From assembly GCF_009914755.1 (NCBI RefSeq), contig NC_060925.1: DNA of 64,000 nucleotides; one strand, written 5' to 3'. Under the pieces are notes generated by a model. That model was not told where the DNA came from and ran no database searches. It saw only the letters and a list, made by a program, of their open reading frames with translations. The position numbers and the translations under genes were made by a program. The stretch is from the human T2T-CHM13v2.0 reference genome, Homo sapiens. Shown here one piece after another: positions 3,615 to 56,692 of this stretch; positions within the stretch are counted from its first letter, which is position 1, and each line of letters opens with the position of its first letter.

Positions 3615-3763
3615 TAGGGTGCCCAATTTAGCAAATAAAAATACAAAACACCCAGTTAAGTTTTATATAAACAACAAGTAATTGTTTAGTGTATGTTTCA
3701 AATATTCATTGCTTGCCTGAAATTTAAATTTAACCATGTTTTCTGTATTTTGTCTGGTACCTA
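3615..3763. mobile_element. MER53-like hAT MITE, internally deleted
   Basis: tagggtgcccaatttagcaaataaaaatac...tgtattttgtctggtaccta; imperfect palindrome with TAGGG-type termini. Confidence 0.7.
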
Positions 3764-5022
3764 GTCCTGACCAGGTCTTTGCTTGTTTGTTGTCAGATGT
3801 GACTATCTAACTACACTCCCACTTTGGACATACACTCATATTTGCACTCCAAACACAAGCAGGCCCATGGTGAATGCTCAATAAACTTAATGCTCTTCCC
3901 ACCCTTACCTGTCTGCTTCACTTGAAAGTCTCTAACCACAGTCCTGTTCTTACTTGTCTGACCAACTTCTAGCCTCAGTTTTATATGCCTGATAATTTAC
4001 ACTGGGCACCAGCCCAGCCCAACCCCATAACAAACCACGCCATTGGCTCCATACCAGCTGTTTCTGTTGCCAGAATGGGTGCCGGTTTTGCTTATGCACT
4101 AAAACATAAAGATAATAACTTAGCCCTTTCCATTTCATGTCCTCGTTTTCATTTCCCTCTAAAAGAGTGATCATCCAGCAAGCAAAGAATCACTTAATGA
4201 CTTGTACTATTTCATTTCTTCCTCTTTTGCACTATTTCATTTTTGGTGTTATATTCCAGAAAACCTCTTTGGCCCTCACTTCCTGTCTCTGTTGAACTCT
4301 TTGTATTGCTTTCTTAAGGTGTTTTTGTTGTGCTGTCTGGCTTGTTTCCCTGGAACTACATTTCAGAGTGCCTCACTGAGGCAAGAATGAGGGAGGCAGA
4401 CTGCATTAGAAATTCTCAAGTTTGAGAATTGATGAAGGTCTTGGATCATATCCCTGAATAATGCCAAGGTCTTGGAGTATATTCCAAACTATTTCATTTC
4501 ACCTTATGACTCAGATATCAGAAGTTATATATTTATATCTGAGGCTAAAAAAGAGTGACAGTTTAAATTGTCAAAGACCCCTAAAACACAAAGCAGGCCC
4601 CAGACCCAAGAACATCATGATTCTGAAGAGAAAAGTGTGAGAAAAGATCAGAAAACTCTTAGTCAGTGAGGCCTGGCAGATGTAGGAAAGAAAGAAACAC
4701 CTGCTCAGGCTACCATGGAAGACAAAACAGAACATCTCTCAAATTAGAGAAATAATAAAAATTATTTGTCATCACAAATAAAATGTTTAGCGATTGAATG
4801 AATTTTTGCATCAAGCTCATTTTGGTGGTGGTTACGAATACAAACATCAAAAGTCTTTTTCAGGGAGCCCAAGAGAGAGCAGATGTTAGTTAGAATAAAA
4901 TTGGAGCAAGGCAGACTAAATTTTGTTTTGTCCTGGTGTTGCATTTATTATTTCATCACATCCCCTTAGTCAGCACTGCAACCTGTGCAGAAATTAATCT
5001 ATGCAAATAGCTTGGTCCATAG

Positions 5023-5632: not shown

Positions 5633-5862
5633 TTTTTTTTTTGAGACGGAGTTTCACTTTTGTCGTCCAGGATGGAGTGCAATGGCGTGATCTCGGCTCA
5701 TCACAACACCTGCCACAATGCCCAGCTAATTTTTGTATTTTTAGTAGAGATGGGGCTTCGCTATATTGGCCAGGCTGGTCTCGAACCCCTGACCTCAGGT
5801 GATCTGCCCACCTCAGCCTCCCAAAGTGCTGGAATTACAGGCGTGAGCCACTGCACCTGGCC
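5633..5862 (-). mobile_element. AluS with ~60-bp internal deletion in the right arm
   Basis: Poly-T, then gagacggagtttc...; jumps from cacaac to acctgccac at ~5707; ends cctggcc. Confidence 0.92.
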
Positions 5863-6000
5863 TAATTTCTATGTTTTGAAAAATGTTCCATGGCTAGATA
5901 AGATGTTAACATTAGGGAAAGCTGAAGGAAGAGTATATGGGATCTCTCTTATTATCTTTGCAACCCTTCTGTAAATCTCAAATGTTTCAAAATAAAGATA
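5863..6000 (+). mobile_element. L1M 3'UTR fragment
   Basis: gatgttaacattaggg...tatatgggatctctc...tttgcaac...ctgtaaatct...aaataaa. Confidence 0.65.
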
Positions 6001-10891: not shown

Positions 10892-10898
10892 TCAGGAG

Positions 10899-11533
<635 letters not shown>

Positions 11534-31488: not shown

Positions 31489-31568
31489 TGGTGCTCTGGT
31501 AGAGCATTTGATTTTGGCTCCATTTGTGCATCATTTTGAAAGGATTACTAATGTGAAAAGATAGCTCA

Positions 31569-31868
<300 letters not shown>

Positions 31869-32059
31869 TAACTCAAGAGGTCTTCCAAAGGCTAATATAT
31901 ACATTTAAAGGGAGTTTTTAACATATCCGAGTTTTTAAAATTCGTAACACTTATTTTTGTATATATATTTAAAGTAGTGGCCAAAATGCAAGTTTAAACT
32001 GTCTTGTTTACTGAATGTCTACTCTCTGCCAGACAATCTTCTAAACATTTTACAGCTGT

Positions 32060-32385
<326 letters not shown>

Positions 32386-34596: not shown

Positions 34597-34998
<402 letters not shown>

Positions 34999-35669: not shown

Positions 35670-35925
35670 CAAAGTGTGGCAGGATAGGGTAGTGGTTATA
35701 CGGACTCTGGAGCCAGACCACCCAAGTCAGAATTCAGCTCTGACACTTAGCAGCTGTGTGACTTTGGGAAAGTTGCAACCTCTTGATGTACCTCAGTTTC
35801 CTCATGTGCAAATGAAAATATTATGGGGTTCTACCTTTGGGGGTTGTTGTAAGTTGGTGCAAATAAAGCACTTAGAACAGAGCATGGCACATGGTAAGCA
35901 TGCCAATACATGTTATTGGCAACTA
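35670..35925 (+). mobile_element. Near full-length MIR
   Basis: ggactctggagccagac...agctgtgtgactttggg...cctcagtttcctcat...aaagcacttagaacag. Confidence 0.85.
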
Positions 35926-36045
35926 TTGAGTTTACCTTGTAGTTCACTGTTCATAACTTAGGCAGCAATCCTGAGCTAAACTTAAACAAAATTAGGGCTT
36001 AATCCCCATGTTAATTATGGGGCTGGTGTATGTGTGTTATGGGAC

Positions 36046-37992
36046 TGTGGGGCCTGTCAAGATAGTCCTTCTAAGGTAAAGGGTAAGTTGCTGCATTTGG
36101 CCCCTCCTACAACCAAGAAAGAGGCACAATGCCTAGTGGGCCTATTTGGCTTTTGGAGGCAACACATTCCTCATTTGGGTATATTAGTCCTGCCCAATTA
36201 TCAAGTGACCTGAAAGGCTGCCAGTTTTGAGTGGGGTCCAGAACAGAAGGCTCTGCAACAGGTCCAGGCTGCTGTACGAGCTGCTCTGCCACTTGGGCCA
36301 TATGACCCAGCAGATCCAATCGTGCTTGAGGTGTCAGTGGCAGATAGGGATGCTGTTTGGAGCCTTCGGCAGACCCCCATAGGTGAATCACAGTGGAGGC
36401 CTCCAGGATTTTGGAGCAAGACCCTGCCATCTTCTGCAGATAACTACTCTCCTTTTGAGAGACAGCTCTTGGATTGCTACTGGGCTTTGGTGGAAACTGA
36501 ACATTTGACTATGGGTCATCAAGTCACCATGCCACCTGAATTGCCTATCATGAACTGGGTGCTTTCTGACCCATCTAGCCATAAAGTGGGTCATGCACAG
36601 CAGCATTCCATCATCAAATGAAAGTGGTATATACGTGATCGGGCTCGAGCAGGTCTTGAAGGCCAAGTAAGTTACATGAGGAAGTGGCTCAAACGCCCAT
36701 GGTCTCTACTCCTGCCACCCTGCTTTCTCTTCCCTAGCCTGCACCAATGGCCGCATAAGGAGTTCTCTATGATGAATTGACAGAGGAGAGAAGACTAGGG
36801 CCTGGTTCACAGATGGTTCTTCATGATATGCAGGCATCACCCAAAGTGGACAGCTGCAGCACTACAGCCCCTTTCCAAGACATCCCTGAAGGACAGTGCT
36901 GAAGGGAAATATTTCCAGTGGGCAGAACTTCAATCAGTGCACCTGGTTGTGTGATTATATACTGATACGTGGGCTGTAGCCAATGGTTTGGCTGGGTGGT
37001 CAGGGACCTGGAAGAAGCATGATTGGAAAATTGGTGACAAAGAAATCTGGGGAAGAGGTATGTGGATGGGCCTGAGTGGCCAAAAACTGTGAAGATATTT
37101 GTATCCCATGTGAGTGCTCACCAATGGGTGACCTCAGCAGAGGAGGATTTTAATAATCAACTGGCTAGTATGACCCATTCTGTGGACACCACTCAGCCTC
37201 CTTCTCCAGTCACTCCTGTCATCGCTCAATGGGCCCATCAACAAAGTGGCCATGGTGGCAGGGTTGGAGGTTACACATGGGCTCAGCAACATGGACTTCC
37301 ACTCACCAAGGCTGACCTGGCTACAGCCAGTGTTGAGTGCCCAATTTGCCAGCAGCAGAGACCAACACTGAGCCCTCGATATGGCACCATTCCTTGGGGT
37401 GATCAGGCAGCTAGCTACCTGGTGGCAGGTTGATTATATTGGACCTCTTCCATCATGGAAAAGGCAGAAGTTTGTCCTCACTGGAATAGACAATTACTCC
37501 AGATATGGGTTTGCCTATTTTGTATGCAATGCTTCTGCCAAGACTACCATCCGTGGACTCACAGAATGCCTTATCCACAATCATGCTATTCCACACAGCA
37601 TTGCCTCTGTCCAAGGCACTCACTTTATGGCTAAAGAAGTGTAGCAGTGGGCTCATGCTCATGGAATTCACCATCATCCTGAAGCAGCTGAATTGATAGA
37701 AAGGTGGAATGGCCTTTTGAAGTCACAATTACAATGCCAACTAGGTGACAATACTTTGCAGGGATGGGACAAAATTCTTTAGAAGGCCGTGTATGCTCTG
37801 AATCAGTGTCCAATGTATGGTACTGTTTCTCCCATGGCCAGGATTCAAGGGTCCAGGAATCAGGGGGTGGAAGTGGAAGTGGCACCACTCACCATCACCC
37901 TAAGTGATCCACTAGCAAAATTTTTGCTTCCTGTTCCCGCGACATTCTGTTGTGCTGGCCTAGAGGTCTTAGTTCCAGAGGGAGGAATGCTG
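36046..37992 (+). mobile_element. HERV-L internal fragment (pol: RT C-terminus/connection, RNase H, integrase, start of the dUTPase region), decayed
   Basis: Broken frames give PTTKKEAQCLVGLFGFWRQHIPHLG, AWFTDGS and IYTDTWAVANGL (RNase H), HQQSGHGG...CPIC (integrase Zn finger), WQVDYIGPLP and IERWNGLLK (DDE core), [10 protein letters not shown]; several stops and frameshifts. Confidence 0.93.
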
Positions 37993-38638
37993 TGGATATG
38001 GGTACAGCCGGGCGCGAGATTTACACCCTCTCCCCCGCACTTTCAAGGGCCCTCCAGAGCTCACCAGATGCCGCTGGAAGCGCGACGCTTTCCAAGGCGC
38101 GGACCCCTCTCTCCAGGCGAACCCAATTCCAGGGCGCCCTGCCCTTCACAAGGAGAAAAGAACTCTCCCCGGGGCTTCCATTGGCTTCTCTGGGATCCTT
38201 CGCATTACTGTGCTGGACGCTTGGCAGTGTCCATCTCCGCCACTCCGGATTCGGGATCTGAACCGGACTCCCTTTCGATTGGCTGAGGGCAACAGAGGCC
38301 ATCGCCTGTCCATTCAGAATGGCGCTCACCTATTTCTCAGGACCGAATGACCCATGTCCAACTGCTGTTCACATGGAACCCTTCTCCACTTCGGCCTTTG
38401 AAGTTCTCTTTAGAATATGTGCTACTACCACCAAGATCTGCACCTGCGGCGGCTCTGCCCGGGCCCAGCCCTGGGCTTCAAGACTCACCGCAGCGGCCCT
38501 CCTACTAGACGCATAGCGTCCACGGGGCTGGCGGGCGGGGGGGTGGTGACCTCCACACATACACTGCTTCTGTTCACTCTGGACTGCTGGCGATGGCCTG
38601 GTACAGGCCCGACAATCCAGTGCCATCCATTTTCAGGG
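37988..38638 (-). pseudogene. 28S (LSU) rRNA fragment, non-functional
   Basis: Reverse complement carries conserved 28S motifs CCCTGAAAATGGATGG, GCAGATCTTGGTGGTAGTAGCA, GAAGTGGAGAAGGGTTCCATGTGAACAGCAGTTG and GTACCCATATCC; many CpG-type substitutions; ~650 nt with no rDNA context. Confidence 0.95.
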
Positions 38639-38655
38639 GAACCCTGACTAATACA
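38639..38655 (+). mobile_element. 3'-terminal 17 nt of an MLT2-type (HERV-L) LTR
   Basis: GAACCCTGACTAATACA matches the recalled MLT2 LTR end (...GAGAACCCTGACTAATACA); followed by GGGAT, echoing GGGAC at 36041-36045. Confidence 0.72.
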
Positions 38656-38706
38656 GGGATCATTCAATAAAAAGACTCCAACTCTTAGAAATCAATTTAG
38701 TCACTA

Positions 38707-46083: not shown

Positions 46084-46272
<189 letters not shown>

Positions 46273-55059: not shown

Positions 55060-55409
<350 letters not shown>

Positions 55410-56692
55410 GAGACCAGTTTTCAATTTAGAACATGAGGTTATATGAGACACTATAAAAGTATTAATGAACAGTATAAAAGATGAGAAATTCTAAGATCAT
55501 AAGTACTGCTCTGAGCCTTGAAACATTTAAAAGATAGCACTGAATGAGGTTATCTGAATCTGTAGAATTTACACCTGCAAGCCATATTCTGAAGGGATCC
55601 TGGATACTGGTTGCTAACTTTTAAAGCCATCAGGCTCAGAATAAAAATGCTTTAGAGTAGCTGGTAAAGATCCTGAAGTAACTAAATAAAAAAGGGAAGC
55701 CCAGCATCACTTACTAATGAAGATGTACAATTGCAGTTGATCAGTTGTTCAAGAACTGTAAATTATGTGGACATCATAAATGAAGAGAGAAGAATATAAA
55801 AATGTCAGCAATATGTTATAACTAACTTAGTCCATAGAATAGTGTGTATACCGGAATAGTGTGTATCCAGGAAATAGAAGTAGGAAACCAAAGTATCAGG
55901 GAAAAGGAGAAGGACTTTATAAATATACTTAAAATTGTCAAATGAGGCTAATGTAACACTTCACACTGGGTACCAGTATTGGAAGTGGTAGCAGGAGCAG
56001 CAGTAGTAATAGCAGGAGCAAAACACATAGCACTTCCCACATGTGAGATGCTATTCTCAGTATTTCACACCTACTAACTCTTTTAAGCCTCCTAACATGA
56101 GCATTAAACACTATGAGACAGTGTTGCATGATGAAATAAACTGGGGAAAACTCTAGATAAACTGTCACTTTCCTAGAAGGGAATACATCATACTAGCAGC
56201 ATTTCTTATATATCTGTTTGACAAAAGAAATCTTTTCATGGTACTTCTCACAGGGCTAGAGATTCCTGGAATACTCCATTGGAGATATTGATCTGATATT
56301 TGTAAAAGGGGTTTGAAAAGTAAGAGTGTCCTGTTAATCATCAAATTATTGAATTTCAGAATTCTTAGGTTCTCTTATTCCATATAAAATATTTAATACA
56401 ATGTTTCAGACAAATGGTCATTCAAGTATTGTTTAGGAGCCTGCATTGGCTAGAAGTGCAGTCTCTCAGAAAGATAAGGCATTTCACCATGGAAAGGCAA
56501 TACAATTCATTGAAAACACTTTTTTTTTGTATTAAAGTAGTGTTTTTCTTGTATAAATCTCATTCACTGACTGCCTGACTGCTGTAATAATGTAAAGTCC
56601 TCTTATAACTCCAAGTTACAAAATGACAAAAAGAAAAATTAGAATAAGGATGGAAAATTTTAGAGAAAAGTTTAAAATTAATACAGTGGAAC

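What the first reader, a model, noticed from the sequence alone, without database searches (positions are those of the whole stretch)
36041..38660. HERV-L / 28S rRNA chimera that looks like one integrase-made insertion (retroviral capture of rRNA)
Seen in sequence: GGGAC | TGTGGGGCC...HERV-L pol (36046-37992) - antisense 28S rRNA (37988-38638) - GAACCCTGACTAATACA (38639-38655) | GGGAT. The 2610-bp unit starts TG, ends CA and is flanked by a 5-bp direct repeat with one mismatch. Established: ERVL elements make 5-bp TSDs and HERV-L LTRs (MLT2) end in ...GAACCCTGACTAATACA. Inference: the rRNA replaced the dUTPase region and nearly the whole 3' LTR inside one provirus-derived unit. The pieces would normally be annotated as unrelated neighbours and the 17-nt LTR tip would be too short to mask. 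There is no poly(A) tail or L1-type TSD, so ordinary L1 retroposition does not explain it.
Basis: partly seen in the sequence, partly recalled or inferred. Interest (0 to 1): 0.85.

Follow-up and report, generated by a model that had tools for sequence, protein, structure and literature searches.

The report
Retrovirus fossil carrying a ribosomal-RNA piece
A 2.6-kb piece of an ancient human endogenous retrovirus just past the end of the VAV3 gene has a backwards stretch of ribosomal RNA where its tail should be, and its ends suggest one faulty retroviral copy-and-insert event, though a later repair accident is almost as likely.

Summary
HERV-L pol runs 36046-37992. Antisense 28S rRNA runs 37988-38638. 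The exact 17-nt terminus of the HERV-L LTR is at 38639-38655. The flanks are GGGAC and GGGAT. No poly(A) or long duplication is present, and both junctions are single-copy in this genome.

The right end is a normal integrase-made LTR end. The left end starts TGTG, like the LTR itself, and sits next to a 4-of-5 copy of the right-flank 5-mer. That combination occurs at about 0.09% of window positions (TG) or 0.008% (TGTG). This family does make 5-bp duplications: 3 of 3 proviruses and 9 of 13 other LTRs.

The left end also falls on one of only two AGGGG...TGTG sites in HERV-L. The other is the real polypurine-tract/U3 border. This likeness is weak and was defined after the fact. The rRNA piece is not younger than the retroviral piece.

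My odds are about 45% for one aberrant reverse transcript inserted by integrase. I give about 40% to a normal provirus later truncated and patched with rRNA cDNA at a break. The antisense rRNA is easier to explain under the second reading. The decisive test, orthologous loci in other primates, could not be run here.

The parts
36041..36045 (.). Left flank 5-mer GGGAC, candidate copy of the target-site duplication
   Evidence: It matches the right 5-mer at 4 of 5 places. The window null for 4 or more matches is 1.28%.
36046..37992 (+). HERV-L pol fragment running from the RT connection/RNase H region through the integrase core to the first residues of the dUTPase domain. It has many stops and starts with TGTG.
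   Evidence: boundaries. (Pfam RT_RNaseH_2, rve). (the break maps to the start of the dUTPase domain in copy L067). (terminal branch 0.053).
37988..37992 (.). TGCTG, a 5-nt microhomology shared by HERV-L and antisense 28S at their junction
   Evidence: 8 of 11 HERV-L copies read ...ggaatgctg before diverging; the rDNA alignment includes TGCTG.
37988..38638 (-). 28S rRNA fragment (sense on the minus strand), domain III region plus an expansion segment
   Evidence: RF02543, 209 bits, model positions 1456-1888 of 3401. (87.9% identity over 552 aligned sites).
38541..38565 (-). Shortened GC-rich expansion segment: about 25 nt where the present human rDNA has about 137 nt
38639..38655 (+). Exact last 17 nt of the HERV-L LTR (U5 end, ...ACA), joined blunt to the rRNA piece
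   Evidence: One search shows the rDNA continues with C where the window has G, so there is no microhomology.
38656..38660 (.). Right flank 5-mer GGGAT, candidate copy of the target-site duplication

Best explanation
One aberrant HERV-L reverse-transcription product was inserted in a single step by the element's integrase.

Shown: the right end is the processed LTR terminus (...ACA). The left end begins TGTG, as the LTR does. Both ends abut a 5-bp near-duplicate of target DNA.

Inferred, step 1: plus-strand DNA started at an internal site in pol (...AGGGGTCCAGTGG|TGTG) that loosely resembles the real polypurine-tract/U3 border (...AAGGGGTGGACT|TGTG).

Inferred, step 2: in the integrase/dUTPase region the growing plus strand switched, over the 5-nt match TGCTG, onto a 28S rRNA present in the particle and copied 651 nt of it. 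This would account for the antisense orientation.

Inferred, step 3: the strand returned to the last 17 nt of U5.

Inferred, step 4: because the patch removed the polypurine tract, U3 and R, no normal left LTR could be made. The resulting 2.6-kb duplex had only a TGTG end and a 17-bp U5 tip, and integrase joined both ends to the chromosome with its usual 5-bp stagger.
For: Boundaries fixed by homology, not chosen by eye, give TG...CA termini and a 4-of-5 flank match. The joint chance is 56 of 63985 positions (0.088%), or 5 of 63985 with TGTG.

The family makes 5-bp duplications. They are perfect in 3 of 3 complete proviruses. They match at 4 or more places in 9 of 13 non-proviral LTRs, 5 of them with one mismatch, against 0 of 17 for an offset control.

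The LTR starts TGTGATGG..., so the first 4 nt of the unit equal the U3 terminus.

AGGGG(N0-12)TGTG occurs 5 times in five proviral loci: 3 at this pol site, 2 at the polypurine-tract/U3 border, and nowhere else.

The rRNA piece is not younger than the HERV-L piece. Its divergence is 7.8% at non-CpG sites, against a 0.053 terminal branch for pol.

No poly(A) or long duplication is present.

Literature. Retroviral non-homologous recombination can patch in host RNA through fortuitous microhomology (PMC4997597, section 5.1 read). Foamy viruses start a second plus strand inside pol (PMC6669543, passages read). Further purine-rich internal starts are reported for HIV (bioRxiv 10.1101/2023.06.12.544617, abstract only).
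Against: Antisense rRNA cannot arise from a simple switch during minus-strand synthesis. It needs plus-strand copying of rRNA, or a read-through RNA that carries antisense 28S. Several rare steps are needed in series.

The return to U5 shows no microhomology.

The resemblance of the pol site to the polypurine tract is weak and was defined after the fact. Among 32-53 TGTG sites per provirus it ranks 1, 1, 2, 1 with one reference tract but 4, 4, 16, 18 with another. In L065 the pol site is not an exact TGTG and was not ranked.

Truncation at this site is not recurrent. Of 85 copies with the exact 18-mer, 84 have the normal GG upstream and only the window differs.

Neither junction has a second copy, so the chimera never replicated.

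The left flank's GGAC also resembles the end of the polypurine tract (GGACT). That resemblance is as likely by chance as the duplication.

No outgroup locus was seen.
Confidence: 0.45

Rival explanations
1. Stepwise origin. A normal HERV-L provirus integrated here, and its right junction is the ordinary 3' LTR end. Later a break, or two breaks, removed about 1.3-1.5 kb from the dUTPase region to 17 nt before the LTR end. The free 3' end ...GGAATGCTG annealed to 28S rRNA over 5 nt and a cellular reverse transcriptase (probably L1 ORF2p) extended it. The cDNA was then joined blunt to the other end. A separate deletion removed the 5' LTR, gag, pro and half of RT. The left 'duplication' is then either chance, or it survived because the deletion used the 4-nt match between the LTR's first TGTG and the TGTG in pol.
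For: The orientation and the junction pattern (5-nt microhomology on the priming side, blunt on the far side) follow directly from this model. 28S rRNA fragments are known to be reverse-transcribed into primate genomes by L1 machinery: 18 28S/L1 chimeric loci are reported (PMC13174262, passages read). No step needs unusual retroviral biochemistry. No second example of the left-end truncation exists.
Against: It needs a coincidence of about 1e-3 at the left end, or a deletion endpoint falling within the first 4 nt of the 5' LTR. The cut site ...TGCTG|CCAC is not an L1 endonuclease site, and there is no A tail. The rRNA piece shows no sign of being younger than the provirus, so the patch would have to be early.
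Confidence: 0.4
2. One-ended integration. Integrase joined only the U5 end of a damaged viral DNA. Host end-joining attached the truncated left end and, in the same event, produced the short flank duplication.
For: Aberrant proviruses with one normal and one truncated, host-joined end are documented for ASLV and HIV vectors. Viral or host DNA can be added in either orientation, and host duplications occur (PMC5041404, passages read).
Against: In those cases the extra DNA sits at the bad end. Here the rRNA lies 17 nt from the good end. A host-joined end gives no reason for a 5-bp duplication or a TG start.
Confidence: 0.08
3. Replication-based or templated-insertion rearrangement. Pieces of a HERV-L copy, of rDNA and of an LTR were copied in series into a break near VAV3.
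For: Three unrelated pieces are joined, one of them over a 5-nt microhomology.
Against: It does not explain why the last piece ends exactly at the LTR terminus, as in 30 of 30 family members. It does not explain why the unit has TG...CA ends with a 5-bp flank repeat.
Confidence: 0.04
4. Ordinary L1-mediated retroposition of a chimeric RNA.
For: L1 does make 28S chimeras (PMC13174262).
Against: There is no poly(A) or poly(T) at either end, no 7-20-bp duplication and no L1 sequence. The parts are in opposite orientations.
Confidence: 0.02

Closest known systems
Retroviral non-homologous recombination with 'patch repair' or transduction of co-packaged host RNA (review PMC4997597, section 5.1)
   Same: A host RNA-derived stretch lies between two viral segments that are not adjacent in the parent. 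One junction has a short microhomology. Viral end sequence is retained.
   Different: The host piece is 28S rRNA and is antisense. The product lacks a left LTR and most of the right LTR. It is a germline fossil present once, not a replicating recombinant. Three full-text searches found no report of an ERV carrying rRNA.
[quoted passage not shown]
   Same: A 28S fragment of several hundred nt was reverse-transcribed into the genome, with microhomology at the priming junction.
   Different: There is no L1 part, no A tail and no 7-17-bp duplication. The published fragments cluster at 28S positions 3636-4115 and are mostly sense to L1. This one comes from the domain III region (Rfam model positions 1456-1888 of 3401) and lies between retroviral pieces.
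Aberrant one-ended retroviral integrations (PMC5041404)
   Same: A provirus with one canonical LTR-host junction and a truncated opposite end.
   Different: Here the truncated end also carries a TG start and a 5-bp flank match, as in concerted integration.
Internal plus-strand initiation at central polypurine tracts of foamy viruses (PMC6669543)
   Same: A second plus-strand start inside pol in the retroviral group to which class III ERV-L is usually allied (that relationship is recalled).
   Different: The foamy element is identical to the 3' tract and lies in the integrase region. The HERV-L site lies in the RT connection region and shares only AGGGGT...GG|TGTG with the 3' tract.
Dispersed rDNA-like pseudogenes of the human genome (PMC5381670; search listing and term search only)
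   Same: A decayed 28S-derived sequence outside the rDNA arrays.
   Different: That paper's main text holds none of the terms LTR, retrovir-, retrotranspos- or VAV3. Its supplements were not examined and may list this locus.

Membership tests
HERV-L (class III ERV) internal region | Nucleotide homology to many genomic HERV-L pol copies, plus RT/RNase H and integrase domains | tested here: met
   (90-92% identity to 39+39 scored copies). (RT_RNaseH_2, rve).
HERV-L LTR | LTR body of about 450-590 bp running from TGTGATGG... to ...ACA | tested here: not met
   Only the last 17 nt are present (17 of 17 identical). No other LTR or HERV-L piece exists in the 64-kb window.
28S rRNA (Rfam RF02543) | Score above the gathering cut-off | tested here: met
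   209.1 bits against 50. It is a fragment only (model 1456-1888 of 3401) and is decayed (87.9% identity).
Integrase-made retroviral insertion | TG...CA termini | tested here: met
   The unit starts TGTG and ends ACA.
Integrase-made retroviral insertion | Family-specific target-site duplication (5 bp) | tested here: met
   4 of 5 places match. Family habit. One mismatch is as common as none among old copies (5 against 4).
Integrase-made retroviral insertion | Cognate LTR end sequence at both ends | tested here: not met
   The right end has 17 nt of U5. The left end shares only TGTG with the LTR start.
Integrase-made retroviral insertion | A precise empty site in species that lack the insertion | not testable with these tools
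   Only the window's own genome and prokaryotes are held. The flanks are unique in this genome.
L1-mediated retroposition | 3' poly(A), a 7-20-bp duplication and a TTTT/AA-like nick site | tested here: not met
   The nick-site consensus is recalled.
Replicating transducing retrovirus | More than one genomic copy of the chimeric junctions | tested here: not met
   Searches found self hits only. Searches scored only the 40 best candidates.

The most novel reading that the evidence does not exclude
The locus is a fossil of a single aberrant ERV-L replication event. Plus-strand DNA started at an internal polypurine-like site, copied a co-packaged 28S rRNA and returned to the last 17 nt of U5. Integrase then inserted this LTR-less 2.6-kb DNA in a concerted way. 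If so, a bare TGTG end plus a 17-bp U5 tip is enough for a class III integrase in vivo. It would also show that endogenous retroviruses, not only L1, can seed rRNA pseudogenes in the germline.
Probability: 0.4. Interest if true: 0.7.

Novelty: new variant of a known kind. Interest (0 to 1): 0.55.

Why it matters
If the single-event reading holds, this is a natural record of three things otherwise known mainly from vector experiments. First, host-RNA patching during retroviral DNA synthesis. Second, internal plus-strand starts. Third, how little end sequence integrase needs. All three would be seen in a roughly 5%-diverged primate ERV.

It would add retroviruses to the routes by which rRNA sequence is scattered through genomes. 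It would also define a search image for finding more cases: an internal ERV fragment, then foreign RNA, then a very short LTR tip, flanked by a family-sized duplication.

If the stepwise reading holds, the locus is an ordinary decayed provirus with an rRNA-templated repair patch. Either way, standard repeat annotation would list the parts as unrelated neighbours and miss the 17-nt tip.

The unit lies 37 bp beyond the annotated VAV3 3' end and has no evident function.

Tried and rejected
(1) Hidden HERV-L homology left of 36046. I saw apparent resemblance by eye. Smith-Waterman scores against the upstream 600 nt of 8 copies, and of window 35900-36045 against 5 whole proviral loci, were at shuffle level. 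Rejected.

(2) The left flank as a remnant of the polypurine-tract region. Alignment of the 30-nt flank plus TGTG to the last 50 nt of 5 proviruses gave p of 0.008-0.05. The TGTG was counted for free in that score, so I treated the result as not significant. The GGAC/GGACT likeness remains as a caveat.

(3) The 17-mer as belonging to a family other than HERV-L's own LTR. I first suspected an MLT1-type LTR from memory. Proviruses L065-L069 show that the same LTR, starting TGTGATGG... and ending in the 17-mer, flanks HERV-L.

(4) A displaced 5' half of the provirus elsewhere in the window. None was found. All other hits are Alu or other repeats shared with the flanks of the reference loci.

(5) A hot spot of truncation at the pol site. 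There is none: 1 of 85 copies.

(6) A paralogous empty site. Both flanks are unique in the genome.

(7) Age test. It is not resolving. It shows only that the rRNA is not younger. Thirteen C<->G transversions suggest that part of the rRNA divergence is change in the rDNA lineage itself.

(8) A survey of 80 proviral 3' ends, to ask how often 5'-truncated HERV-L copies carry duplications.

Two papers on host-sequence patches were not held. A look-up on the foamy-virus intasome substrate failed on a term that was too short, and I did not repeat it. My note that 17-19-bp U5 oligonucleotides suffice for that intasome is therefore recall only.
Full report
WHAT IS THERE

Reading the region and searching the window's own genome fixes three parts by homology alone.

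Window 36046-37992 is HERV-L pol. With window 35850-36350 as query, 40 of 1246 candidates were scored. Of the 39 non-self matches (90-92% identity), 30 start at window 36046. The others start at 36048 (6), 36041 (1), 36047 (1) and 36051 (1). With window 37700-38060 as query, 40 of 1549 candidates were scored. Of the 39 non-self matches, 28 end at 37992 and all end between 37987 and 37993.

Other copies carry ordinary HERV-L sequence on both sides of these points: 10 of 11 at the left and 11 of 11 at the right. So the window's copy is cut at both ends.

The 600 nt left of 36046 have no similarity to the upstream part of HERV-L. In the 8 of 11 loci tested, scores were 11-14 against shuffle means of 12.1-13.1. 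Window 35900-36045 also has no similarity to any part of five proviral loci. Pfam sees RT_RNaseH_2, RT_RNaseH and the integrase core in 2 of 7 open pieces. In copy L067 the right breakpoint maps about 17 residues into the dUTPase domain.

Window 37988-38638 is 28S rRNA on the minus strand. Rfam LSU_rRNA_eukarya scores 209 bits against a cut-off of 50. BLAST to an rDNA unit gives 87% over 566 columns and 84% over 73. A GC-rich expansion segment is about 110 nt shorter than in present human rDNA.

Window 38639-38655 is a 17-mer with 1829 exact genomic copies against 1 for a reversed control. In 30 of 30 loci fetched it is the end of an LTR, and similarity between copies stops right after ...ACA. 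The same LTR starts TGTGATGG... and ends with this 17-mer in bona fide HERV-L proviruses.

THE JUNCTIONS

HERV-L and antisense 28S overlap by TGCTG. The join between 28S and the LTR tip is blunt: the rDNA continues with C where the window has G, and the LTR has A before the 17-mer. In full copies about 1.3-1.5 kb lies between the two viral breakpoints. So 651 nt of rRNA replace the dUTPase region, the polypurine tract, U3, R and all of U5 except 17 nt.

THE ENDS

The unit starts TGTG and ends ACA. Its flanks are GGGAC and GGGAT.

This family does make 5-bp duplications. Three of 3 complete proviruses have perfect ones. Of 30 LTR loci, 17 had a recognisable LTR start. Four of these are proviral LTRs whose partner lies elsewhere. 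Of the other 13, 9 match at 4 or more of 5 places (4 perfect, 5 with one mismatch). An offset control gave 0 of 17.

In the window, a 5-mer matching GGGAT at 4 or more places occurs at 1.28% of positions. With TG next it occurs at 0.088%, and with TGTG next at 0.008%. Because both boundaries were set by homology, this is close to a single prior test.

There is no A or T run at either end and no longer flank repeat. No other HERV-L or LTR piece lies in the 64 kb. Neither flank, nor any of the junctions, occurs elsewhere in the genome. For some searches, only the 40 best candidates were scored.

A POSSIBLE LINK BETWEEN THE LEFT END AND REVERSE TRANSCRIPTION

In proviruses the 3' LTR is preceded by ...AAGGGGTGGACT|TGTGATGG. 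The pol site where the window's copy begins reads ...AGGGGTCCAGTGG|TGTGGGGCC.

The pattern AGGGG(N0-12)TGTG occurs 5 times in five proviral loci of 6.1-6.6 kb: 3 at this pol site, 2 at the true border, and nowhere else.

The likeness is modest, and I defined the pattern after seeing both sequences. Ranked against one reference tract, the pol site is 1st, 1st, 2nd and 1st of 32-53 TGTG sites. Against another reference it is 4th, 4th, 16th and 18th. In L065 the site is not an exact TGTG and was not ranked.

Truncation here is not recurrent. Of 85 copies with the exact 18-mer, 84 have the normal GG upstream.

The left flank's GGAC also resembles the end of the tract (GGACT). A wider alignment of the flank to the tract region was not significant once the free TGTG is discounted.

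AGES

The rRNA piece differs from present rDNA at 67 of 552 aligned sites. At non-CpG sites the divergence is 7.8%, and 22 transitions fall on 64 CpGs. Thirteen C<->G transversions suggest that part of this is change in the rDNA lineage itself.

The pol piece has a star-tree branch of about 0.049 and a maximum-likelihood terminal branch of 0.053. The family median is 0.061. Six short rows were dropped from that tree. Two loci, L029/L067 and L016/L069, turned out to be the same places and were counted twice.

LTR pairs of three proviruses are 86-90% identical. The rRNA piece is therefore not younger than the retroviral piece. A finer statement is not justified.

HOW IT MOST LIKELY AROSE

That the right junction was made by integrase is close to certain under every serious reading, because it is the exact family terminus. 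The open question is whether the internal rearrangements and the left end arose before or after integration.

Reading A (about 45%): one aberrant reverse transcript. Plus-strand DNA begins at the internal site. It switches over TGCTG onto a 28S rRNA in the particle, which explains the antisense orientation. It then returns to the last 17 nt of U5. Without the polypurine tract, U3 and R, no left LTR can form. Integrase joins the TGTG end and the U5 tip with a 5-bp stagger.

Support from print for reading A:
- Retroviral recombination can patch in host RNA by fortuitous microhomology (PMC4997597, section 5.1 read).
- Foamy viruses start a second plus strand within pol (PMC6669543, passages read).
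- More such sites are proposed for HIV (bioRxiv 10.1101/2023.06.12.544617, abstract only).

Weak points of reading A: several rare steps in series, a return jump without homology, almost no cognate sequence at the left end, and no second example.

Reading B (about 40%): a normal provirus was later broken. The 3' end ...GGAATGCTG primed cDNA synthesis on 28S rRNA by a cellular reverse transcriptase, and the cDNA was joined blunt to the far end. A separate 5' deletion followed. This explains the orientation and the asymmetry of the junctions without special pleading. 28S fragments are known to be reverse-transcribed into primate genomes with L1: 18 loci are reported (PMC13174262, passages read).

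The cost of reading B is the left end. It needs either a chance of about 1e-3 or a deletion whose endpoint fell within the first 4 nt of the 5' LTR. It also needs an early date for the patch.

Minor rivals are one-ended integration (PMC5041404, passages read), serial templated insertion, and plain L1 retroposition. The last is contradicted.

COMPARISON AND NOVELTY

The parts are known kinds, and the mechanisms invoked are known from exogenous retroviruses and vectors. Three full-text searches returned no report of an endogenous retrovirus carrying rRNA. The paper on dispersed human rDNA-like sequences holds none of the terms LTR, retrovir- or retrotranspos- in its main text. Its supplements were not examined and may list the locus. 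I rate this a new variant of a known kind.

WHAT COULD NOT BE DONE

The names MLT2, MIR and Alu, the 5-bp rule for ERV-L in repeat databases, the L1 nick-site consensus and the size of the foamy-virus intasome substrate are recalled. They do not come from any call.

Noticed in passing
window 38656-38692: The unit ends 37 bp beyond the annotated 3' end of VAV3 (38692, minus strand). The 28S-sense strand is the VAV3 strand, so read-through VAV3 transcripts would carry an rRNA-like stretch of 651 nt at about 88% identity.
   Followed up: no
window 38541-38565: The 28S copy has about 25 nt where human rDNA has about 137 nt of GC-rich expansion segment. The cause could be an ancestral short segment, reverse transcriptase skipping a hairpin (the human segment folds at -111 kcal/mol), or a later deletion.
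   Followed up: partly
window 37988-38540: 13 of the 23 transversions between the copy and present rDNA are C<->G. They cluster in stems. This looks like change in the rDNA lineage rather than decay of the copy.
   Followed up: partly
window 36016-36045: The left flank (…GTGTATGTGTGTTATGGGAC) loosely resembles the last ~36 nt before the HERV-L 3' LTR (…GTGTATGGGTTCAAG…GGACT). p was 0.008-0.05 with TGTG counted free, so I judged it chance.
   Followed up: yes
window 34689-34991: There are two SRP-RNA-like hits and a mir-1268-like hit. These are the two arms of an Alu element (name recalled). Other Alu-like hits at 5633-5885, 10895-11521, 31568-32354, 46120-46267 and 55118-55430 appeared as matches to Alus in the flanks of the reference loci.
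   Followed up: no
window ~35690-35940: The sequence just upstream of the unique left flank looks like a MIR element. This is by eye and recall only; no tool named it.
   Followed up: no
L035-L064 (LTR loci), about 20-70 nt before the LTR end: Many copies of this LTR carry variable (TA)n, (CA)n or (TATC)n microsatellites just upstream of the conserved terminal ~40 nt. These break BLAST alignments between LTRs.
   Followed up: no
L065-L068 and L035-L064: In the three 5' LTRs of the L035-L064 set (L048, L051, L053) and in L066, the LTR end ...ACA is followed by GATTTTGGTA…, continuing CCAGG in the first three. Five nucleotides therefore separate the CA from the TGG of the primer-binding-like site.
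   Followed up: no
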